64,000 nt of DNA from the NCBI GenBank assembly GCA_035353595.1, contig DAOPZW010000001.1:1099-65098 (forward strand). The letters are read 5' to 3'. The notes under the pieces were generated by a model. That model ran no database searches. It saw only the letters and a program-made list of their open reading frames with translations, and had not been told where the DNA came from. The stretch comes from Elusimicrobiales bacterium. Its GTDB lineage: Bacteria; Elusimicrobiota; Elusimicrobia; Elusimicrobiales; UBA9959. The first letter of the stretch is position 1, and each line of letters opens with the position of its first letter. Made by a program: the position numbers and the translations under genes. Of this stretch, positions 55,476 through 63,240 are shown piece by piece.

Positions 55476-57596
55476 TTGATATATTATTCTCCGGCAGGTT
55501 CAAAGAAATATTTTTGTGTTTCACCACGGGCCGCCCGGGCGATCGGCTGGCTGCTGGCCGCCTGGCTGGGCGCGACAGGCTGGGTGTATTACCACGGGCA
55601 CGACTGGACGGCGCTGTGGCAAATGTGGCGCTACTGGCCCACCCTTATCCCGAATTTTTCCGCCGCCCGGGCCTGGATCATCCTGTGCGACCTGGCCCTG
55701 CTGGCGGCGCTGCTCTGGCTGACGCTGCTGGGCCGCGGCGCCGGCGCCGCGCTGCTGGCATACGCCGGGCTGGCTACCGGGGAAAAGCCGGGGCAGTTCG
55801 CTTTGAGCCTGGCGGCGGGCTGGGGCGCCATGGCCCTGGCCATGTTCGGGCTGGGCGCGCTGGGCGCGTGGAACAGGCCGTTAGTGTTCGCGCTGCTGGG
55901 CGCCGGCACGGCCGCCCTGGCCTTTGGGCAATACCGCGGCTGGCGCGCCGCGGCCGCGGCGCCGCCCAAGGCGTCCCCCGCCGGGGCGCGGCCGCTGTTC
56001 TCCTGGAATAAAGCGTGGCTTTTAATCTTCGCCTGTTTCGCCGCGCTGAACCTGCTGTGCGCCTTCGTCCCCGAAATATTCTACGACGCGCTGGTCTACC
56101 ATTTAGCTCTGCCGGACCTGTACTGGAAACACGGCGGCCTTATGGCTACGCCGTGGAACCTTTACGCCGGGCTGCCGCAGCTGGTGGAATGCCTCTACGC
56201 CTTGGCCCTGCCGGTGGGCGGCGACGGGCTGGCGCGCCTGCTGCACTGGGCCTTCGGCCTGGGCGCGGCGCTGCTTACTTTCGCGATGGCGCGCCGTTAT
56301 GTAAGCCTGGGCGCCGCTTACCTGGCCGCGCTGCTGTTTTACAGCATCCCGCTGGTGGGCGTGCTGTCCGGCCAGTCTATGACGGACCTGGGCTGGGTGT
56401 TTTTCCAGCTGGCCGGGCTGTACGCGCTGTGCATACGCCTGGAAGCCCCGGATAATTCGCGGAACTGGACGCTGCTGGCCGGAATGCTATGCGGTTGCGC
56501 CATGGGCAGCCGCTACCAGGCCTGGCTGCCGTCCCTGCTGGCCGGCGCGGCGCTGGCCCGGGCGCTGCCCGCCGGCGGCAAAGGCGGCCGCCGGGAAGCG
56601 CTGCTGCTCGCCGCGGCCGCCCTGGCGGCGGCGGCGCCGTGGCTGGTAAAGAACGCGGTCTTCTATCACAATCCAGTTTACCCGTTCCTGCACGAGTATT
56701 TTTCGGCGGGGCCCGCCCCGCGCTGGCGGGACCTGCTGGCCGACGGCGGGGGCCGGGACCCGGGGCTGTTGCTTTCCAGCTGGGCCGGCCTGCGCTCCTG
56801 GCTGCTGTACTTCTGGGACTACTCTTTCGGGGCCAATGACCTGGGGCCGGCGCTCCTGCTGGCGTTTCCCGCGCTGTTGCTGCGCAAACATCTTAAACAG
56901 CCGCTGCTTTTTCTGCGGGAAGTTTTCTTGCTGGTCTGGTTCACGCAGAGTTTTTTCAGCGGCCTGGCCCGTTTCCTGCTGCCCTGCTTTCCGCTGGCCT
57001 TCATACTCTTTGCCGCGGCGGCGGAAAATTACCTGGACCGCAGGGTGAGAAACGCGCTCAACGCCGGCCTGCTTTTTGTTTTTTGTTCCAACTTCATGCT
57101 GCAGGTCTATATCTTCAAAGCTTACGGGGCCGACAACGCGGTGCTGGGGCTGGAAACGGCGGCCGAATATCTTAAGACCGCGCATAAGACTTATCCCCGG
57201 CCGCCTTATGTCGCGCTGGAATACATCAATAATACCCTGCCGCAGGACGCGCGCGTGCTGTTCGTGGGCGAGGCGCGCGGCTTTTACTGCCGGCGCGATT
57301 ACCTGGCCGGCGCGGTCTTTAACGAGCCGCCGCTGCGCGAGTGGCTGCGCGGCGCCGCCGGCGCCGAAGAACTGCTGGCCCGTTTCCGCGCGGAGCGCAT
57401 AACGCATGTGCTGATAAATCACAATGAGCTGGAAGCCTGGCGGCGCGCCTACCCCGCGGCCATGGCGCTGGACAGCAGGGCCGCGGCGGTCTTCGATGAA
57501 TTCACACGGCGCTTTCTGCGTTTGAAGTTCGAAAGCAAAACCGCCCCGGCCGGCAGCATAATTTCCTGGACCCAGGTTTACGAAGTAGCCCTGTAA
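55476..57596 (+). CDS. Polytopic membrane protein, tentatively a GT-C-type (PMT_2/ArnT-like) glycosyltransferase
   Basis: 706 aa. More than 10 hydrophobic segments followed by a ~150-aa soluble C-terminal domain. The family call is tentative and the start is uncertain. Confidence 0.4.
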   Translation: MIYYSPAGSKKYFCVSPRAARAIGWLLAAWLGATGWVYYHGHDWTALWQMWRYWPTLIPNFSAARAWIILCDLALLAALLWLTLLGRGAGAALLAYAGLATGEKPGQFALSLAAGWGAMALAMFGLGALGAWNRPLVFALLGAGTAALAFGQYRGWRAAAAAPPKASPAGARPLFSWNKAWLLIFACFAALNLLCAFVPEIFYDALVYHLALPDLYWKHGGLMATPWNLYAGLPQLVECLYALALPVGGDGLARLLHWAFGLGAALLTFAMARRYVSLGAAYLAALLFYSIPLVGVLSGQSMTDLGWVFFQLAGLYALCIRLEAPDNSRNWTLLAGMLCGCAMGSRYQAWLPSLLAGAALARALPAGGKGGRREALLLAAAALAAAAPWLVKNAVFYHNPVYPFLHEYFSAGPAPRWRDLLADGGGRDPGLLLSSWAGLRSWLLYFWDYSFGANDLGPALLLAFPALLLRKHLKQPLLFLREVFLLVWFTQSFFSGLARFLLPCFPLAFILFAAAAENYLDRRVRNALNAGLLFVFCSNFMLQVYIFKAYGADNAVLGLETAAEYLKTAHKTYPRPPYVALEYINNTLPQDARVLFVGEARGFYCRRDYLAGAVFNEPPLREWLRGAAGAEELLARFRAERITHVLINHNELEAWRRAYPAAMALDSRAAAVFDEFTRRFLRLKFESKTAPAGSIISWTQVYEVAL

Positions 57597-57679
57597 AAGG
57601 GCAAGGCGCCGCGGGCTTTCCGGCCGCCTGTGCCGGCAGCGGGGCGCCGTTGCGGCCTTCCGCCGCTGCTTTATATACA

Positions 57680-57713
57680 TTTTCAAGTGAAAATAAGGAT
57701 TTTCATATGAAAA
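57680..57713. promoter_or_regulatory. Two tandem upstream activator sites TTTTCA-AG-TGAAAA and TTTTCA-TA-TGAAAA
   Basis: Sites at 57680..57693 and 57700..57713, centres 20 bp apart, ~90-120 bp upstream of the -24/-12 promoter at 57799. Confidence 0.6.
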
Positions 57714-57798
57714 TAATTTATCCTCATTAATACAGGGGCCCTGCCAGGCGGGGGGCTACCTCCTATGAAAATGCCGGGTTTCGGCTTACCGGGGGCGC

Positions 57799-57814
57799 TG
57801 GCATATAAATTGCT
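57799..57814 (+). promoter_or_regulatory. Sigma-54 (-24/-12) promoter TGGCAT-ATAAA-TTGCT
   Basis: Consensus spacing. Followed by an ~85-nt leader and an AAGGAG RBS before the ATG at 57911. Confidence 0.75.
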
Positions 57815-57910
57815 CTGTGAAGGTTGCCGGGGTCACCGGATCCCGGTAAGGCAAAGCGTGGTACGGGGCAATATTCGTTCTGCGCTGCACAGCAGTAAGG
57901 AGAAAAATAC

Positions 57911-58213
57911 ATGGAAGCTAATGAAAAAGGGGTTTCGCGGCGCGACGCGCTCAGGCGGATGGCGAAAGTTACGATGGGCATCGGCATGGGCCTGCAGCTC
58001 GTAGGATCTTTTGTGCCGTCGGGGCACGCGGCGGTGACCGCGGCGCAGGGCGCCAGATTCAGTACAATAGGGCAGGTGTCCTCTCCCGCCATAGGCGTGG
58101 CGACGGCCGGCGCTGTGAACAGCGTCACCAGGGAGGGCTGCTATACGAACGGCGCCGGTTACAGCAATAACGGCTACCAGCCGTACAGCAAATACGTTAA
58201 CTGCAATCCGTAA
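57911..58213 (+). CDS. 100-aa precursor-like protein with twin-arginine signal peptide
   Basis: 'VSRRDALRRMAKV' is a Tat motif. Followed by the h-region 'TMGIGMGLQLVGSFV' and 'GHA|AV'. C-terminus 'REGCYTNGAGYSNNGYQPYSKYVNCNP' is Tyr/Asn/Gly-rich with two Cys 20 residues apart. AAGGAG RBS. Confidence 0.7.
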   Translation: MEANEKGVSRRDALRRMAKVTMGIGMGLQLVGSFVPSGHAAVTAAQGARFSTIGQVSSPAIGVATAGAVNSVTREGCYTNGAGYSNNGYQPYSKYVNCNP

Positions 58214-58223
58214 GCTGAACCTC

Positions 58224-58266
58224 GTTGCGCCGCGGCGGCCGCAGCGCCGCCGCGGCGCGGCGCAAC
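58224..58266 (+). promoter_or_regulatory. GC-rich intercistronic stem-loop after the precursor gene
   Basis: GTTGCGCCGCGGCGG...CCGCCGCGGCGC(GGCGC)AAC imperfect inverted repeat. No T-run follows, so it is more likely an attenuator or stabiliser than a full terminator. Confidence 0.45.
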
Positions 58267-58296
58267 CGGGGGAGACAAGACGAAGAAAAACACAAT

Positions 58297-59298
58297 ATGC
58301 CCAACATCCTGCTCACACAAAAATGCGTCCGTTCCTGTCCTTACTGTTTCGCCAAGAAACAGATGAACGACGGCGACAGCGGTGAAATAATAAAGTGGGA
58401 AGACATGGTTTACCTGGCGGACCTGTTCTCCCGGGGCGGCTGCCGCGAAATGCGGTTCCTGGGCGGCGAGCCCACGCTGCACCCGGCTTTCGCCGACTTT
58501 CTCGCCTATTCCCTGACGCGCGGTTTTTCCGTAACGGTCTTCAGCAGCGGCATCATGTCGGACAAGGTCAAAGAAGATCTGCGGCGGGTCTATAAGACCG
58601 TGCCGCAGGCCGACAAGAACGTTTCCTTTCTCTGCAACCTCAACGACCCCGAGCTGTCCCCGCCCGCCGAAAACAAGCGCGTCGAGGAATTCCTGGAAGA
58701 ATTCGGGGCCTGGGTGATGCCCGGCTTCAATATCTACCGGAAGGACTTCAGCCTGGATTTCCTGTTCCGCTATATCAACCGCTACGGCCTGCGGCGCTCC
58801 ATCCGGCTGGGCCTGACGCACCCGATCCTGGGCGAGAGCAATTCCTTTATAGCCATTCCCGAGATGCAGGGCATAGTGGACCGGCTGCTGGGCTACCTGC
58901 CGCAGTTCAACCAGCAGGACGTGGTGCCCGGGCTCGACTGCGGCTTCCCGATGTGCCTTTTCAGCGACAGCCAGCTGGGGCAGCTGTATAAAGCCACCAA
59001 GGGTTCCCAGAGATTTACCTGCGGTGTGCCGCTGGATATCGGGCCGGACATGACGGCCTGGGGCTGCTTCCCGCTGTCGGCCACGCACCGCAAATCCGTG
59101 TACGAATTCGACGATTATAACCAGATGACGGAATACTTTACGACTTTCGCGCAGGACATCAGAAAAGAGGCCGGCGGCATCTACGAGAAATGCGACGCCT
59201 GTACCTGGCGGAAAAAAGGCATGTGCGACGGCGGCTGCGCGGCGCATATGCTGCGCGAAATAGCCAAGGAGGGCGGCGTGCGCGCTTTCAAAATATGA
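58297..59298 (+). CDS. Radical SAM/SPASM-domain enzyme 1
   Basis: 'QKCVRSCPYCFAKK' is the CxxxCxxC motif. 'GGEPTLHP'. C-terminal 'CDACTWRKKGMCDGGCAAH' is a SPASM-like Cys cluster. Confidence 0.85.
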   Translation: MPNILLTQKCVRSCPYCFAKKQMNDGDSGEIIKWEDMVYLADLFSRGGCREMRFLGGEPTLHPAFADFLAYSLTRGFSVTVFSSGIMSDKVKEDLRRVYKTVPQADKNVSFLCNLNDPELSPPAENKRVEEFLEEFGAWVMPGFNIYRKDFSLDFLFRYINRYGLRRSIRLGLTHPILGESNSFIAIPEMQGIVDRLLGYLPQFNQQDVVPGLDCGFPMCLFSDSQLGQLYKATKGSQRFTCGVPLDIGPDMTAWGCFPLSATHRKSVYEFDDYNQMTEYFTTFAQDIRKEAGGIYEKCDACTWRKKGMCDGGCAAHMLREIAKEGGVRAFKI

Positions 59299-60131
59299 CA
59301 ACAGCGACAAAACGTGTTTTCGTGGTTCCCTTCAATGAAGCCGTGCTGGGTAAAACGGGTTCGCACCCGGTGGCCGTGCGCACCAACGATCCCGGCGAGA
59401 TAAGCCGCATAGCCGCTTCGGTCAGCGCCGACAGGCTGCATTGCATCGAGGTCAGCTCCGACAGCCTGGCCGGGCTGGACTTCAAGAAAGAATGGCTGGC
59501 GCTGCCGCTGGTGTTCCGCTTGAAACGCGCCGGGCGGCTGCTGGACAGCATTCCCGCGCTCGAAACCCTGCGCGGCGCCGCGGCCCGCTTCTATTTCCCG
59601 GCCACGCCTGAAAATATCACGGCGGCGCGCGTGCTGTCCTCGCTGATGGTGAAGACGGGGCTGCTGCTGGACGGCGAAGGCGCCGACTGGGACGCCCTGG
59701 AAGACCTGGTGGTCTACGATTCCTGCGGCAAAGTGCCGCACTCCTCCGTGGAGCCTTTCCGCTACGTGTACGCCGAGTATAAGAACCGGCAGGCGGATTA
59801 TAACGAGCTGTACCTGGAAAAAGAGGGCACCTTCTACCATTGCGACGCGCAGGGCAATGTGGCCCTTTCCGGCGCCGCGCTGGCCGGCGGCGACTTTATA
59901 GGCACGCTGGACAAAGCCGACGCCATAGACTTCTCCGCCTGCAGCCTGGCCGCCAGGGAAAAGCGCCGCGCCCCGCTGCTGAAATTCGAAGGCTGCGCGG
60001 TGTGCCCCGGCTGGCTGGCCTGCGGTTACCGCAACAGCGCCAAACCCGAAACCTGCGGCATGAAGCCGTTCATGACCGCGCTGCTGGACGCCGCCGAACA
60101 GGTGAATAAAAATGCCGACCATAATATTTAA
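59295..60131 (+). CDS. SPASM-only 'pseudo-rSAM' protein (no CxxxCxxC motif)
   Basis: 278 aa. ATGA overlap with the upstream stop. No N-terminal radical-SAM Cys triad, but a C-terminal 'CAVCPGWLACGYRNSAKPETC' cluster. Confidence 0.55.
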   Translation: MTTATKRVFVVPFNEAVLGKTGSHPVAVRTNDPGEISRIAASVSADRLHCIEVSSDSLAGLDFKKEWLALPLVFRLKRAGRLLDSIPALETLRGAAARFYFPATPENITAARVLSSLMVKTGLLLDGEGADWDALEDLVVYDSCGKVPHSSVEPFRYVYAEYKNRQADYNELYLEKEGTFYHCDAQGNVALSGAALAGGDFIGTLDKADAIDFSACSLAAREKRRAPLLKFEGCAVCPGWLACGYRNSAKPETCGMKPFMTALLDAAEQVNKNADHNI

Positions 60132-61221
60132 AGCTACCGAACGCTGCAACGCGAACTGCGCCTACTGCGACGTGGTGCGCAAGAAATGCGTGCCGGACAT
60201 GTCCATGGACATGCTGCGGCTGGTCTTCTCCCGGGCGGACGCGTTCCTGAAAGAAAGGCCCGCCGAGCATATCAACCTGACCTGGCACGGCGGGGAAGTG
60301 ATGATGCTGGGGGCCGATTACCTGAACGCGGCGGCGCGGCTGCAGGCCGAGTGCTGCCCGTCCACCAAAGACCGGATCTTCCATTCGGTGCAGTCCAACC
60401 TTACGCTGCTCGACGCCGGGCTGGTGGCCGCGCTGCGCAACCTGGGCATCAATAACGTCGGGACCAGCTACGACCCGCAGGACAATGTGCGCGGGTTCGG
60501 CAGCAGTCGGGATTCCGACAGCTACAATAAGCGCTTCTTCAGGGGCGTATCCCTGCTAGAGGAGAACGGCATGCAGTGGGGGCTTATCTACGTGGTCACC
60601 AAAAAGTCGCTGGCGGTGCCCGGCGAGTTGTTCCATTTTTTGACCAATATGACCAACGCCCTGATGATAAATCCCATCCTCACGCACGGCGGCGACGAGC
60701 TGGGCCTGGGCATAACGGCCGCGGAATACGCCGATTTCCTGGGCGAGATGTTCAAACTGTGGTGGCCGGCCCGGGACCGGTACGGCATGGTGCGGCCCTT
60801 CTCGGAATATTACGGCTACTATACGCGGCGCGAGACCGGGCTGGTCTGCACCCGCGGCGGCCAGTGCGGCAACAACCACATGTACATCGGCCCGCAGGGC
60901 CAGCTTTCGCATTGCAGCTGCTCCGCCGACTGGAGCCTGGTGGATTACGGCAATATCGCGGATACCACCATCGGCGAAGTTTTCGGCCGGCAGAAGCGCA
61001 AAGACTGGGCGGAGCGCGGCGCGGTGCTGGAGGCAGGGGACTGCAAGGACTGCCGCTTCTGGGGCATCTGCCACGGCGGCTGCCCGATGGATTCGCTGGC
61101 CGTGCACGGCGACCTGCGCCACAAGAGCGAGTGGTGCGACGGCACGAAACTGTTCCTGACCAAGTATTTCGAGCCGATAACAGGCTTACATTATGAAGGG
61201 GGCTCCGGCCATGGCAACTGA
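60112..61221 (+). CDS. Radical SAM/SPASM-domain enzyme 2 (anSME-like)
   Basis: 'TERCNANCAYCDV' is the CxxxCxxC motif. 'HGGEVMM'. C-terminal 'CTRGGQCGNNHMYIGPQGQLSHCSC' and 'GDCKDCRFWGICHGGCPMD' are SPASM clusters. Confidence 0.88.
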   Translation: MPTIIFKATERCNANCAYCDVVRKKCVPDMSMDMLRLVFSRADAFLKERPAEHINLTWHGGEVMMLGADYLNAAARLQAECCPSTKDRIFHSVQSNLTLLDAGLVAALRNLGINNVGTSYDPQDNVRGFGSSRDSDSYNKRFFRGVSLLEENGMQWGLIYVVTKKSLAVPGELFHFLTNMTNALMINPILTHGGDELGLGITAAEYADFLGEMFKLWWPARDRYGMVRPFSEYYGYYTRRETGLVCTRGGQCGNNHMYIGPQGQLSHCSCSADWSLVDYGNIADTTIGEVFGRQKRKDWAERGAVLEAGDCKDCRFWGICHGGCPMDSLAVHGDLRHKSEWCDGTKLFLTKYFEPITGLHYEGGSGHGN

Positions 61222-62062
61222 ACCGCAGTGGATAGATCCTACCGGCGGGCTGGGCGACGTGCTGCTGCTGTCGGGCGTGCTCAAGCTGGTCCACGACAGG
61301 ACGGGCAAGAAATACAACATGATCCGGCGCACTTCTTTCACCGAAATGCTGGCCGGGCATCCGGCCATAGACCGCATAGATTATTTGCCGGCTGGCGCCC
61401 CGGTGATGCCGGTGAAATACGGGCTCAGCGAAGAAGTGCAGACCGGCGGCACCCGGGCTTTCCAGATGCTGGCCAAGATGTTCGGCCTGGAGCTGCCGGC
61501 GCCGGAAACTTTATACCTGCCGATGGACGGGGTTTCGGATACGCTGCTGGCGGACATGATCCCGTGGCGGGAGAAGAACGTGGCCATAGTGCCGGACAGC
61601 ACGGCGCCGAAAAAAATGATGCCGGCGGCCAAATGGGAAAAGGTGGCCAAAGCGCTGGCCGACAGCGGGGCGCTGGTGGTGCAGTTCGGCAAGAAAGGGT
61701 CCGAAAAGATCAAGTACTCCTATTCGCTGGCCGGCGTGACCACGCCCAAAGAAGCGATACTGCTGCTCAAGCGCATGGACCTGCTGATAACGCCCGACAG
61801 TTTCCTGATGCACGCCGCGCACATGACCGGCACGCCGGCCATTTCCCTGTGGGGCCCCACCGAAGCCGACATCTACGGCTACCCGGACCAGCAGCGGCTG
61901 GTAGTTCCCTGCCAGCACGGCCCCGGGAAATGCCGGGTGGCCGACTTTTTCGGCAAATGCTCGGCGCCGGCGCACTGCATGGACAAGATAGACACGGACG
62001 AGATAGTGGCGCGCGCGCTGAAGCTGCTGGGCGGGCAGGGCGGCCGCGGGGGGAAAAAATGA
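61211..62062 (+). CDS. Glycosyltransferase family 9 (heptosyltransferase-like)
   Basis: 'PTGGLGDVLLLSGVL' N-terminal motif and 'LITPDSFLMHAAHMTGTPAISLWGPT' C-terminal GT9 motif. Overlaps the upstream gene by 11 nt. Confidence 0.7.
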   Translation: MATEPQWIDPTGGLGDVLLLSGVLKLVHDRTGKKYNMIRRTSFTEMLAGHPAIDRIDYLPAGAPVMPVKYGLSEEVQTGGTRAFQMLAKMFGLELPAPETLYLPMDGVSDTLLADMIPWREKNVAIVPDSTAPKKMMPAAKWEKVAKALADSGALVVQFGKKGSEKIKYSYSLAGVTTPKEAILLLKRMDLLITPDSFLMHAAHMTGTPAISLWGPTEADIYGYPDQQRLVVPCQHGPGKCRVADFFGKCSAPAHCMDKIDTDEIVARALKLLGGQGGRGGKK

Positions 62063-63240
62063 GCCTGAAGCCGTATGTTTTCCTGATGTGGCTGGCGCTG
62101 CTGCCGGCGCCGGCAGGCGCGGCGGTGCCCGAGGGCCAGCCGGCGCCGCGCGTGAGCATGCAGCTGCTTAAAGACGGCGCCGTTACCGATTTCCCCGGCT
62201 GGGCGGCGTACCGGGGCAAGGTGGTTGTGCTGGAACTGTGGGGCACCTGGTGCGCCCCTTGCGTGGTCTCCATTCCGCATTTTAACGGCTTGCAGAAAGC
62301 GCTGCAGGGTAAACCTGTGGAATTTATTTCCGTCACCGACGAGAGCGCGGCCCGCGTGGGGAAGTTCCTGGAGCAGCATCCGATGGCGGGCACCGTGGCC
62401 GTGGGCGGCGGGGAAGCCATCAGCGCTTTCGGCACGGGCCTGTTCCCGCAGACGGTGATAATAAGCAAAACCGGGACCGTGCTGCGCTATACCCAGCCCG
62501 AAGAACTTTCTGAGAAAGCCCTGGCCCGGCTGCTGGCTACCGGCTCAGCCGCCGGCATCAGGCGCATACTTCCCGACGTCGCTCCCGCGAAAAAGACGGC
62601 GCGCAGGACGCTGTTCGAGGTGCGCATAGACAGCATGTCCTGCGACGAGCCCGACAGTTTCGAGACCCAGGCCGGCCCCGCGGGCGTGACGCTGACCTGC
62701 AGCGGGGACCTGCGCCACGCGCTGTCGCAGGCTTACGGGATAAAGGAAAATAATATAGAGATCTCGTCCGCGCTGCCGCGGCAGAGCTTCAGCCTCACCG
62801 CGCGGTATCCGCAGGCTTCTGAGAAAATGTTCCGGTCTTTGCTGCGGCAGGCCGTAAAGACCGCTTACGGCGCAGAAGTGCGCGGCGTGAAAAAAGAAAA
62901 ACAGGTGCTGCTGCTCCGTTATGACAAAGAGACGCCGCACAGCGGCCTGCAGCCGGCCAAAGATAGCCGCGCCTCCGTAAGCGGCAGCAACCAGTCCGTC
63001 CGCGCGCAAGGCGCCCGGATGGACCAGATCGCGGGGATGCTTGAAAATATCTGCCGCCTGCCGGTACTGGACGAAACAGGGCTGGCCGGCGGCTACGATA
63101 TAGACATTGAATGGGAGCCGGCAACCCCGGAGGCGCTGGGCGCCGTTCTTAAAGAAAAGCTCGGCCTGACGCTGGTCCCCGCCAGCCGCGGGCTGGAGAC
63201 GCTGGAAGTCTACCCGGCCGGGGGAGAATCAGGTTCCTAA
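62059..63240 (+). CDS. Exported TlpA-like thioredoxin fused to a TIGR03435-type C-terminal domain
   Basis: Signal 'FLMWLALLPAPAGAA'. Redox motif 'WGTWCAPC'. C-terminal 'TLFEV...LRHALSQAYGI...LPVLDETGLAGGYDIDIEW...KLGLTLV' matches the TIGR03435 pattern. ATGA overlap with the GT9 stop. Confidence 0.7.
   Translation: MSLKPYVFLMWLALLPAPAGAAVPEGQPAPRVSMQLLKDGAVTDFPGWAAYRGKVVVLELWGTWCAPCVVSIPHFNGLQKALQGKPVEFISVTDESAARVGKFLEQHPMAGTVAVGGGEAISAFGTGLFPQTVIISKTGTVLRYTQPEELSEKALARLLATGSAAGIRRILPDVAPAKKTARRTLFEVRIDSMSCDEPDSFETQAGPAGVTLTCSGDLRHALSQAYGIKENNIEISSALPRQSFSLTARYPQASEKMFRSLLRQAVKTAYGAEVRGVKKEKQVLLLRYDKETPHSGLQPAKDSRASVSGSNQSVRAQGARMDQIAGMLENICRLPVLDETGLAGGYDIDIEWEPATPEALGAVLKEKLGLTLVPASRGLETLEVYPAGGESGS

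What the first reader, a model, noticed from the sequence alone, without database searches (positions are those of the whole stretch)
57911..58213. Precursor carries a twin-arginine (Tat) signal, implying export of a pre-modified folded product
The N-terminus reads 'SRRDALRR', then a hydrophobic stretch, then 'GHA|AV'. This is a textbook Tat signal. Tat substrates are exported after cytoplasmic folding or cofactor insertion, which fits modification by cytoplasmic rSAM and GT9 enzymes before export. RiPP leaders are normally not Tat signals.

The predicted mature ~58-aa product ends in a Tyr/Asn/Gly/Ser-rich stretch (CYTNGAGYSNNGYQPYSKYVNC) bracketed by two Cys residues. This is a plausible target for rSAM crosslinks, glycosylation and a periplasmic disulfide made by the downstream thioredoxin.
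Basis: partly seen in the sequence, partly recalled or inferred. Interest (0 to 1): 0.7.

Follow-up and report, generated by a model that had tools for sequence, protein, structure and literature searches.

The report
Peptide precursor with Tat-like export signal
A 100-residue peptide gene heading a radical-SAM modification operon in Elusimicrobiales bacteria starts with a strongly conserved export signal of the twin-arginine (Tat) type. This suggests the peptide is cross-linked in the cytoplasm and then exported by a general pathway, an arrangement I found no report of for modified peptides, but nothing has been tested experimentally.

Summary
Window 57911-58213 (+) is a real 100-aa gene. Its N-terminus reads SRRDALRR, followed by a Gly-rich, weakly hydrophobic stretch and GHA|A.

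- **Conservation.** I found 13 distinct family members in total. The 12 linked to the cassette all keep S/A-R-R-x-A-[LI], a signal of about 40 aa and a small-x-small cleavage site. They meet the TatP motif and have Tat-like, not Sec-like, hydrophobicity.
- **Gene context.** The gene always heads a sigma-54-driven cassette found only in Elusimicrobiales: precursor, rSAM, a 278-aa Cys-rich protein, and an anSME/ChlB-like rSAM/SPASM enzyme. No exporter or leader protease is conserved.
- **Pattern of conservation.** The signal is the best conserved part (RR box 83%). The Tyr-rich tail varies (38%) but keeps three Tyr. This is the leader/core pattern of a RiPP.

- The Cys pair is not conserved.
- GT9 and the thioredoxin are accessory genes.
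- The thioredoxin is a TlpA-like reductant, not a disulfide maker.
- The mature part looks unstructured, not folded.

Weak points:
- Curated Tat-signal HMMs stay below threshold.
- The consensus Phe is Ala.
- One distant relative lacks the RR.
- I could not check whether the host has tatA/tatC.

Verdict: a new variant of signal-peptide-bearing RiPPs, probably Tat-routed. Confidence is about 0.5.

The parts
57652..57676 (+). Terminator-like hairpin plus T-rich tail ending the unrelated upstream 706-aa membrane-protein gene. It marks the 5' boundary of the operon.
   Evidence: The upstream gene is not conserved in other loci.
57799..57814 (+). Sigma-54-type -24/-12 promoter element TGGCAT-N5-TTGCT, 112 nt upstream of the start codon.
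   Evidence: The same element, with 0-2 mismatches and the GG-N10-GC spacing kept, lies upstream of the precursor in L001, L002, L005, L008, L009, L012, L014 and L016. Only 3 strict matches occur in the 64-kb window. No sigma-70-like promoter was found here.
57897..57902 (+). Shine-Dalgarno sequence AAGGAG, 8 nt before the ATG.
   Evidence: read from the sequence.
57911..58213 (+). Precursor gene, 100 aa including the signal.
   Evidence: pN/pS is 0.26 over the RR box and h-region.
57911..57967 (+). n-region with the twin-arginine box (residues 1-19). S9-R10-R11-D-A-L-R-R-M-A-K; the R10R11 codons are at 57938-57943.
   Evidence: Matches the TatP regex. The RR box has 83% mean pairwise identity among 12 members.
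57968..58015 (+). h-region (residues 20-35), VTMGIGMGLQLVGSFV. It is Gly-rich and weakly hydrophobic.
   Evidence: The best 12-aa Kyte-Doolittle window scores 1.64, with a family mean of 1.68. Mean pairwise identity is 69%.
58016..58030 (+). c-region (residues 36-40), PSGHA, with the predicted signal peptidase I site after A40.
   Evidence: A small-x-small (-3/-1) site sits at the same position in 11 of 12 members: AxA in nine, and GHA, VQA or LSA in the other three.
58046..58087 (+). [quoted passage not shown] It may be a second recognition element for the modifying enzymes.
   Evidence: G54 is invariant and I53 nearly so. Mean pairwise identity of residues 41-59 is 48%.
58139..58210 (+). Tyr/Asn/Gly/Ser-rich tail (residues 77-100), the putative core. 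It has three family-conserved Tyr (Y78 nearly invariant; Y84 and Y92 invariant), each opening a Y-x-x unit (YTN, YSN, YSK). C77 and C98 are not conserved.
58223..58262 (+). 17-bp GC-rich hairpin directly after the stop codon, with no U-tract. It probably sets the precursor-to-enzyme transcript ratio.
   Evidence: -44 kcal/mol, z = -3.1. GC-rich inverted repeats, read by eye, follow the stop in L014 and L016.
58297..59298 (+). rSAM enzyme 1 (333 aa). It has C10x3C14x2C17 and further conserved C-terminal Cys, and no signal peptide.
   Evidence: Present in all 9 cassette loci.
59295..60131 (+). 278-aa protein of unknown family with conserved C234xxC237...C243...C254. It is weakly SPASM-like and lacks CxxxCxxC.
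   Evidence: hhalign against the SPASM region of rSAM2 gives 11% probability. The AF2 model has pLDDT 61, and its highest-probability fold hits are SuiB and CteB, not significant.
60112..61221 (+). rSAM/SPASM enzyme 2 (369 aa), with C12x3C16x2C19 and two auxiliary-cluster Cys sets.
   Evidence: Profile hits: anSME 4e-17 over the full length, ChlB 7e-11. The best NCBIfam hit is DynA at 139 bits, against a cut-off of 450.
61193..62062 (+). GT9 (heptosyltransferase-family) glycosyltransferase with no signal peptide. It is accessory, found in 7 of 9 cassette types. Gene callers start it at 61211.
62059..63240 (+). Periplasmic TlpA/ResA-like redoxin (WCAPC) fused to DUF3738, with a Sec-type signal peptide. 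It is accessory, found in 5 of 9 cassette types.

Best explanation
The 100-aa product is the precursor of a peptide modified by radical-SAM enzymes (a RiPP). Its leader is an export signal of the twin-arginine type.

Proposed sequence of events:
1. The operon is transcribed from a sigma-54 promoter. The hairpin after the precursor gene probably keeps precursor transcript in excess over enzyme transcript.
2. In the cytoplasm, the two rSAM enzymes act on the three conserved Tyr-x-x units of the C-terminal tail, together with the 278-aa Cys-rich partner. The most likely chemistry is Tyr-to-C-beta cyclophane or ether cross-links. Where GT9 is present, it adds a sugar.
3. The unusually conserved signal (the SRRxA[LI][KR]RMAK box and the GxGMGLQLxGxF segment) and/or the QGARF..IG block act as the enzymes' recognition element.
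4. The modified precursor goes to the Tat translocase and is cleaved by signal peptidase I after residue 40. This releases a peptide of about 60 aa into the periplasm.
5. In the periplasm, the accessory proteins (Sec-exported TPR protein, Trx-DUF3738 redoxin, DsbD) handle it.

Shown: gene order, conservation, signal anatomy, and the cytoplasmic or periplasmic placement of the partners.
Inferred: the modification chemistry, the dual role of the signal, the Tat route, and the cleavage site.
For: - **Signal anatomy.** SRRDALR meets the TatP regex, which covers 97% of the TatP training set. The signal is about 40 aa, against a Tat average of 37. The h-region scores 1.68, like Tat (1.62) and unlike Sec (2.33) or the Sec-type signals in the same cassettes (2.50). 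A small-x-small site sits at residues 38-40.
- **Conservation.** S/A-R-R is kept in 12 of 12 cassette-linked precursors. Identity is 83% in the RR box and 69% in the h-region, against 22% in the linker and 38% in the tail. pN/pS is 0.26. The Trx-DUF3738 control shows the opposite pattern, with the signal at 45% and the Trx domain at 64%.
- **Precursor role.** The gene is always first in the cassette precursor, rSAM1, 278-aa protein, rSAM2, in 9 loci. A hairpin follows the stop codon.
- **Export route.** The enzymes have no signal peptides. No ABC exporter, C39 peptidase or other protease is conserved in the cassette, so export must come from the peptide's own signal.
- **Periplasmic partners.** The TPR and Trx-DUF3738 proteins carry Sec-type signals.
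- **Chemistry.** rSAM2 aligns over its full length with anSME, and also matches the Tyr-modifying triceptide synthase ChlB. Triceptides are defined by aromatic-X-X motifs, and ChlB's native motif is YDR (PMC11499958). The tail keeps three Tyr.
- **Precedent.** Bufferins and oxazolins are RiPPs with Sec signal peptides in place of leaders (PMC12452194).
- **Why Tat would help.** The SecYEG pore limits transport of cyclised peptides, and Tat has been proposed as the way round this (PMC5686179).
Against: - Curated Tat-signal HMMs do not reach threshold. TIGR01409 scores 9.3 bits against 16.7, in one member only. PF10518 gives nothing.
- The consensus Phe of S-R-R-x-F-L-K is Ala in every member.
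- Eight residues, including R15, R16 and K19, separate the RR from the h-region.
- There is no basic 'Sec-avoidance' residue in the c-region (read from the sequence).
- The distant relative P0009 (precursor, TPR, rSAM locus) has SRGEAIRR and fails the motif, yet keeps the rest of the N-terminal region. The conservation may therefore serve recognition rather than Tat targeting.
- No tatA or tatC lies in any held locus, and I could not examine the host genomes.
- No RRE/PqqD domain was found.
- There is no experimental evidence for modification, cleavage or export.
Confidence: 0.5

Rival explanations
1. The N-terminus is a cleavable signal peptide, but it uses Sec rather than Tat. The arginines are simply the basic n-region, kept because the same segment is read by the modifying enzymes. 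Small three-residue cross-links would still pass through SecYEG, as the heterocycles of bufferins do.
For: Tat HMMs are below threshold. Ala replaces the consensus Phe, and there is no Sec-avoidance charge in the c-region. P0009 keeps the region without the RR pair. Bufferins show that modified RiPPs can use Sec. The TatP regex alone has a 4-7% false-positive rate on Sec proteins.
Against: The h-region hydrophobicity (1.68) is far below that of the Sec-type signals of neighbouring genes in the same organisms (2.50, range 1.99-2.89). The signal is about 40 aa long, against 22-27 aa. The S/A-R-R triplet is kept in 12 of 12 cassette-linked members.
Confidence: 0.2
2. The N-terminal region is only a cytoplasmic leader peptide. 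It would be an amphipathic helix recognised by the rSAM enzymes or the 278-aa protein, and the resemblance to a signal peptide would be incidental. The product would stay inside the cell or leave through a transporter encoded elsewhere.
For: The N-terminus is more conserved than any ordinary signal peptide, as RiPP leaders are. The standalone DUF3738 proteins in L005, L008 and L012 have no signal peptide, so some partners are cytoplasmic.
Against: The region has the full tripartite layout: a basic n-region, 16 or more uncharged residues, and a helix-breaking Pro/Gly followed by a small-x-small site at a fixed distance. The TPR, Trx-DUF3738 and DsbD partners are periplasmic or membrane proteins. 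No transporter is conserved in the cassette.
Confidence: 0.12
3. The signal is not cleaved. The protein would be a small N-terminally anchored membrane protein, inserted by Tat or Sec, that displays a Tyr-rich modified tail in the periplasm.
For: Tat can insert N-terminally anchored proteins (established knowledge of Rieske proteins). In P0007 the small-x-small site is shifted.
Against: The uncharged segment before the Pro/Gly break is only about 16 residues, Gly-rich and weakly hydrophobic, so it would make a poor stable transmembrane helix. A small-x-small site sits at the same position in 11 of 12 members.
Confidence: 0.1
4. The small protein is not the substrate of the neighbouring rSAM enzymes. 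It would be an ordinary Tat- or Sec-exported periplasmic protein that happens to share the operon, for example a partner of the Trx-DUF3738 redoxin. The rSAM enzymes would act on something else.
For: There is no direct evidence of modification. rSAM2 is as close to anSME, a protein-modifying enzyme, as to peptide maturases.
Against: The precursor plus rSAM1, the 278-aa protein and rSAM2 form the only invariant core. The redoxin, GT9, DUF3738 and TPR genes come and go. The mature part is a low-complexity peptide with the leader/core conservation pattern. The whole cassette, including the small gene, is confined to one clade. No sulfatase or other candidate substrate is present in the loci.
Confidence: 0.06

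Closest known systems
Bufferins and oxazolins (MNIO-modified RiPPs with Sec signal peptides)
   Same: The precursor carries a general-export signal peptide in place of a classical leader. It is modified in the cytoplasm and works in the periplasm. The gene cluster has no dedicated exporter or leader protease. [quoted passage not shown]
   Different: The enzymes here are two rSAM proteins, not an MNIO/DUF2063 pair. The likely targets are Tyr, not Cys. The signal has Tat-type rather than Sec-type features. That paper does not mention Tat at all.
Triceptides and other rSAM cyclophane RiPPs (ChlB, XyeB, GrrM/OscB, YhhB, AmcB); darobactin and dynobactin (DarE, DynA)
   Same: rSAM2 is an anSME-like rSAM/SPASM enzyme without an RRE domain. 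It matches DynA, DarE, AmcB, GrrM and YhhB models and the ChlB structure. The core has conserved aromatic-X-X units, as triceptides do.
   Different: All the family models score far below their cut-offs (DynA 139 against 450). A second rSAM and a 278-aa partner are obligatory here. The precursor is long (100 aa) and carries a signal peptide, whereas darobactin uses a dedicated ABC exporter (from my own knowledge). No chemistry has been shown.
Anaerobic sulfatase-maturating enzyme (anSME/AtsB) acting on sulfatases
   Same: A cytoplasmic rSAM/SPASM enzyme modifies a polypeptide that carries an export signal, before export. rSAM2 aligns over its full length with anSME structures (4k37, E = 4e-17). 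From memory, modification of Klebsiella AtsA by AtsB was reported to depend on the AtsA signal peptide. If so, it is a precedent for a signal acting as a recognition element.
   Different: The substrate has no sulfatase domain. The C/S-x-P/A-x-R motif is absent: SSPAI has no Arg and is not conserved. rSAM2 scores 126 against the TIGR03942 cut-off of 349.
Tat signal peptides read by dedicated chaperones (REMPs such as TorD and DmsD)
   Same: A Tat-type signal with more sequence conservation than targeting alone needs suggests a second reader in the cytoplasm.
   Different: No TorD/DmsD-like protein is present. The candidate readers (the 278-aa protein and the rSAM enzymes) are unrelated to REMPs. 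The cargo is a peptide, not a cofactor-containing enzyme.

Membership tests
Twin-arginine (Tat) signal peptide | Twin-arginine motif resembling S/T-R-R-x-F-L-K at the n/h boundary (TatP default regex RR.[FGAVML][LITMVF]) | tested here: met
   SRRDALR is the match. All 12 cassette-linked members match; P0009 does not. The consensus Phe is Ala throughout.
Twin-arginine (Tat) signal peptide | Long signal (about 37 aa on average) with an h-region less hydrophobic than Sec signals | tested here: met
   The signal is about 40 aa. The best 12-aa Kyte-Doolittle window averages 1.68. E. coli Tat signals score 1.62 and Sec signals 2.33 (sequences from memory), and Sec-type signals in the same cassettes score 2.50.
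Twin-arginine (Tat) signal peptide | Signal peptidase I site (small residues at -3 and -1) after the h-region | tested here: met
   GHA|A in the window. AQA, AHA, AYA, AEA, VQA or LSA sits at the same position in the other members, 11 of 12 in all.
Twin-arginine (Tat) signal peptide | Recognition by the curated Tat-signal profiles (TIGR01409, PF10518) | tested here: not met
   TIGR01409 scores 9.3 bits against a cut-off of 16.7, for P0004 only. PF10518 gives no hit at E <= 10. The only other hits are sub-threshold matches to the N-termini of Iro and formate_TAT.
Twin-arginine (Tat) signal peptide | Host encodes TatA/TatC, and export depends on them | not testable with these tools
   No tatA or tatC in the window or in any fetched locus. 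The rest of the MAGs could not be read. The literature searches found nothing.
RiPP precursor (rSAM-modified) | Small gene next to, and co-oriented with, the maturase genes, with conserved synteny | tested here: met
   The gene is first in precursor, rSAM1, 278-aa protein, rSAM2 in 9 loci.
RiPP precursor (rSAM-modified) | Conserved leader and variable core that keeps the modifiable residues | tested here: met
   Identity is 83% in the RR box and 69% in the h-region, against 22% in the linker and 38% in the tail. Y84 and Y92 are invariant and Y78 nearly so.
RiPP precursor (rSAM-modified) | RRE (PqqD-like) recognition domain in a pathway protein | tested here: not met
   No PqqD/RRE hit in any cassette protein. 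RRE-independent maturases exist, so this does not exclude the class.
RiPP precursor (rSAM-modified) | Demonstrated post-translational modification of the peptide | not testable with these tools
   This needs co-expression and mass spectrometry.
Triceptide / cyclophane rSAM RiPPs | Maturase belongs to a characterised cyclophane-synthase family | tested here: inconclusive
   rSAM2 matches the DynA, DarE, AmcB, GrrM and YhhB models, but all far below their cut-offs. The profile hits the ChlB structure at 7e-11, yet anSME scores better at 4e-17.
Triceptide / cyclophane rSAM RiPPs | Aromatic-X-X motifs in the core | tested here: met
   Three conserved Tyr-x-x units: Y-[TNQY]-[NKAS], Y-[STA]-[NQG] and Y-[SGDR]-[KQRN]. 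The class definition is from PMC11499958.
anSME-sulfatase system | Substrate carries the C/S-x-P/A-x-R motif within a sulfatase domain | tested here: not met
   There is no sulfatase domain. SSPAI lacks the Arg and is not conserved across the family.
Bufferin-type RiPPs | MNIO (DUF692) enzyme with a DUF2063 partner | tested here: not met
   No such domains occur in the cassette. The system is analogous only in using a signal peptide.

The most novel reading that the evidence does not exclude
This would be the first natural RiPP pathway in which a Tat signal peptide is itself the leader. The same conserved 35 residues would be read first by the cytoplasmic rSAM machinery, or by the 278-aa SPASM-like partner acting as a REMP-type 'hold-back' chaperone. 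They would then be read by TatBC, so that only the cross-linked (and, where GT9 is present, glycosylated) peptide is released for export. That would be a built-in quality-control hand-off for a modified peptide.
Probability: 0.35. Interest if true: 0.8.

Novelty: new variant of a known kind. Interest (0 to 1): 0.6.

Why it matters
RiPP precursors normally carry private leader peptides and rely on dedicated exporters and proteases. Sec signal peptides on RiPPs (bufferins) were only recently recognised and were called highly unusual.

A Tat-type leader would extend that idea to the pathway built for cargo that matures in the cytoplasm. It would solve two problems together:
- it gives the enzymes time to act before export;
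- it moves cross-linked or glycosylated peptides that may not fit through SecYEG.

Engineers have speculated about exactly this route for lanthipeptide display, and their preliminary attempts failed (PMC5686179). A natural example would give them a working template.

The finding also defines an undescribed cassette restricted to Elusimicrobiales. It comprises two rSAM enzymes, a new 278-aa Cys-rich protein, and a Tyr-rich core. Neither its chemistry nor its biological role is known.

Tried and rejected
1. **Host Tat machinery.** tblastn with E. coli TatA and TatC (sequences from memory) against the window and all fetched loci found nothing. Literature searches on Elusimicrobia and Tat were uninformative, and the E. 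minutum genome paper is not held. This does not show that Tat is absent, because only about 20 kb per locus could be read.
2. **Other Tat substrates.** No other Tat-type N-terminus was found in the window or in the loci.
3. **Distant relatives of the precursor.** A profile search of 1.84 billion representatives gave only 4 further members and one spurious repeat protein, P0010.
4. **The 278-aa protein.**
   - No Pfam, NCBIfam or PDB sequence hit.
   - The AF2 model has pLDDT 61.
   - Foldseek against the PDB found nothing at E <= 0.001; the highest-probability hits were SuiB and CteB.
   - hhalign against rSAM2 gave 11% probability, across the SPASM region only.
   - I therefore call it 'SPASM-like' only tentatively.
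5. **DUF3738.**
   - The domain search returned one hit.
   - The two-sequence model was unusable, with pLDDT 38.
   - The PDB profile search and the literature search were both empty.
6. **Formylglycine idea (S-S-P-A as an anSME motif).** Rejected, because the motif has no Arg and is not conserved.
7. **Lipoprotein idea.** This came from a weak LPAM_MltD hit for P0005. Rejected, because there is no lipobox and the Cys is not conserved.
8. **RNA and promoter checks.** Rfam found nothing in 57400-58400, and there is no sigma-70 promoter.
9. **Metagenome scan.** It added no new variants.
Full report
**1. What is in the sequence**

Window 57911-58213 (+) is an ORF of 100 codons. An AAGGAG ribosome-binding site precedes it by 8 nt.

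The product begins MEANEKGVSRRDALRRMAK. An uncharged, Gly-rich stretch follows (VTMGIGMGLQLVGSFV), then PSGHA|AV. Cleavage after A40 would leave 60 residues. The coordinates and the description are correct.

The gene is real. Across nine loci, the 27 codons from the S-R-R triplet through the h-region show mean pN 0.16 against pS 0.60.

It is also the only convincing RR-type N-terminus in the 64-kb window.

**2. The family**

The protein has no Pfam or NCBIfam family. It is very rare.
- A search of 5.8 billion proteins found five homologues.
- A profile search of 1.84 billion representatives added four.
- Locus searches added three more.

That makes 13 distinct sequences. All those with a taxonomic label are from Elusimicrobiales or Elusimicrobiaceae MAGs.

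Twelve of the 13 are demonstrably linked to the same gene cassette. All twelve keep S/A-R-R-[DEA]-A-[LI]-[KR]-R-M-A-[KG], the GxGMGLQLxGxF segment, and a small-x-small site near residue 40.

The thirteenth, P0009, sits in a rearranged locus of precursor, TPR protein and rSAM. It reads SRGEAIRRIAK, so the first arginine pair is lost while the rest of the region remains recognisable.

**3. Is it a Tat signal?**

I could not run TatP or SignalP, so I applied their published criteria.

*In favour*
- The TatP default regex RR.[FGAVML][LITMVF] covers 97% of its training set (PMC1182353). All twelve cassette-linked members match it.
- The predicted signal is about 40 aa, against a Tat average of 37.
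- The best 12-residue Kyte-Doolittle window averages 1.68. Nine E. coli Tat signals score 1.62 and seven Sec signals 2.33 (sequences written from memory).
- A stronger control comes from the same operons. The TPR and Trx-DUF3738 proteins carry short, classical Sec-type signals averaging 2.50, range 1.99-2.89. The precursor's signal is therefore a different kind from the Sec signals these organisms use.

*Against*
- The curated Tat-signal HMMs do not reach threshold. TIGR01409 scores 9.3 bits against 16.7, in one member. PF10518 gives nothing.
- The consensus Phe is always Ala.
- Eight residues, including three basic ones, separate the RR from the h-region.
- The c-region has no basic residue.
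- I could not check the host Tat machinery. No tatA or tatC lies in any fetched locus, and the literature searches were empty.

I conclude that the signal is Tat-type by sequence rules, but that the route is unproven.

**4. Is it a RiPP precursor?**

The gene always heads the same co-oriented cassette:
- the precursor;
- a 333-aa rSAM enzyme;
- a 278-aa protein with no family, which has conserved C234xxC237...C243...C254 but no CxxxCxxC;
- a 369-aa rSAM/SPASM enzyme.

This holds in the window and in L001, L002, L005, L008, L009, L012, L014 and L016.

These four genes are the only invariant core. The other genes vary between the nine cassette types:
- GT9 is present in 7 of 9.
- Some form of DUF3738 is present in 8 of 9.
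- The Trx-DUF3738 fusion is present in 5 of 9.
- A TPR protein is present in 4 of 9.
- DsbD is present in 2 of 9.

No exporter, C39 peptidase or other leader protease is conserved.

A 17-bp GC-rich hairpin without a U-tract follows the precursor stop codon. GC-rich inverted repeats, read by eye, follow the stop in L014 and L016.

A sigma-54 -24/-12 element (TGGCAT-N5-TTGCT) lies 70-112 nt upstream of the precursor in all nine loci. Several loci have histidine kinases, sigma-54 activators or rpoN next door.

Within the precursor, mean pairwise identity varies by region:

| Region | Identity |
|---|---|
| RR box | 83% |
| h-region | 69% |
| N-terminus of the mature part | 48% |
| linker | 22% |
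| Tyr-rich tail | 38% |

The Trx-DUF3738 protein from the same genomes shows the usual opposite pattern, with its signal at 45% and its Trx domain at 64%.

A conserved N-terminus with a variable C-terminus that keeps a few residues (Y84 and Y92 invariant, Y78 nearly so) is the leader/core signature of RiPPs. It is not.

**5. Likely chemistry**

rSAM2 has the canonical CxxxCxxC motif and two sets of auxiliary-cluster cysteines. Its profile matches:
- anSME over the full length (4e-17);
- the triceptide synthase ChlB (7e-11);
- the sactisynthase CteB (4e-8).

In NCBIfam it matches DynA, anSME, DarE, DarW, AmcB, GrrM/OscB and YhhB, all far below their cut-offs.

Triceptides are three-residue cyclophanes made on aromatic-X-X motifs, and ChlB's native motif is YDR (PMC11499958). 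The three conserved Tyr here each open a Y-x-x unit whose third residue is mostly N, Q, K or R.

I therefore infer Tyr-based cyclophane or ether cross-links. This is inference only.

rSAM1 resembles known families only in its cluster-binding N-terminus. The 278-aa protein is at best weakly SPASM-like.

**6.

- The two Cys are absent from P0004/L009 and P0006/L014.
- The thioredoxin fusion occurs only in loci whose core has Cys (5 of 5 fusion loci; neither of the 2 Cys-less loci has it). That fits the idea that it acts on those Cys, but the numbers are small and the loci are related to each other.
- The thioredoxin is a TlpA/ResA-type WCxPC redoxin with a Sec signal, and DsbD follows it in L001 and L016. 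That marks a reducing or isomerising pathway, not disulfide formation.
- GT9 is accessory.
- The mature part is 49-65 aa. It is 65-75% G/A/S/T/N/Q/P/Y in 11 of 12 members (53% in P0007) and only 9-20% hydrophobic. It looks like a peptide, not a folded domain. From my own knowledge, Tat does also transport small unstructured hydrophilic substrates.

**7. Comparison with known systems**

The closest functional analogues are the bufferins and oxazolins. These are RiPPs that carry Sec signal peptides in place of leaders, a feature described as highly unusual (PMC12452194). That paper never mentions Tat.

My literature searches for Tat together with RiPP terms found no natural example. I found only a speculation that Tat might help lanthipeptide display, with unsuccessful preliminary attempts (PMC5686179).

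The cassette fails the membership tests for anSME-sulfatase, darobactin/dynobactin and bufferins.

I file it as a new variant of signal-peptide-bearing RiPPs, with enzymes related to cyclophane synthases.

**8. Verdict**

| Claim | Confidence |
|---|---|
| The N-terminus is an export signal | about 0.8 |
| The gene is the rSAM substrate | about 0.8 |
| The export route is Tat | about 0.55 |
| The full model | about 0.5 |

The single cheapest decisive test is to look for tatC and tatA in the MAGs that carry the cassette.

Noticed in passing
window 57799-57814; also L001, L002, L005, L008, L009, L012, L014 and L016, upstream of the precursor genes: A sigma-54-type -24/-12 promoter element (TGGCAT-N5-TTGCT) is conserved 70-112 nt upstream of every cassette. 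Two further strict matches lie at window 3251 and 4525. Several loci have a histidine kinase, a sigma-54 activator or rpoN next to the cassette. The operon therefore looks signal-regulated.
   Followed up: partly
L005 13311-14036; L008 10169-10924; L012 12623-13408: Standalone DUF3738 proteins in the cassettes have no signal peptide, whereas the Trx-DUF3738 fusions have a clear Sec-type signal. The same uncharacterised domain therefore seems to be used on both sides of the membrane, perhaps as the peptide-binding module. No literature on DUF3738 was found.
   Followed up: partly
L001 119-5745: A second, unrelated RiPP-like cluster lies about 4 kb upstream of the cassette in this MAG. It has a 44-aa ORF, a 460-aa rSAM/SPASM enzyme and ABC transporter genes, so it is of the classical type with a dedicated exporter.
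   Followed up: no
window 55476-57596: A 706-aa polytopic membrane protein with no Pfam or NCBIfam family sits directly upstream. Its only hit is a faint one to Alg9-like GT22 at E = 0.5. It is present only in near-identical contigs (L020-L022) and not in other cassette loci, so it is probably not part of the system.
   Followed up: partly
L004 730-2449: The most distant family member, P0009 (122 aa, SRGEAIRR in place of SRRDALRR), lies in a different arrangement: precursor, then a Sec-exported TPR protein, then an rSAM gene cut off by the contig end. An OMP beta-barrel gene lies upstream. This suggests a wider, still unsampled family in which the RR is not obligatory.
   Followed up: partly
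window 58225 vs 58297: The start of the first rSAM gene is ambiguous. The longest ORF starts at TTG 58225 (357 aa; the same start is called in L020), which lies inside the hairpin. Homologues in the other loci are called at the ATG equivalent to 58297 (333 aa).
   Followed up: no
L012 10818-12626: In one assembly, rSAM2 and GT9 are called as a single 602-aa fusion. The near-identical locus L013 has them as separate genes of 369 and 236 aa. This is probably an assembly or frameshift artefact.
   Followed up: no
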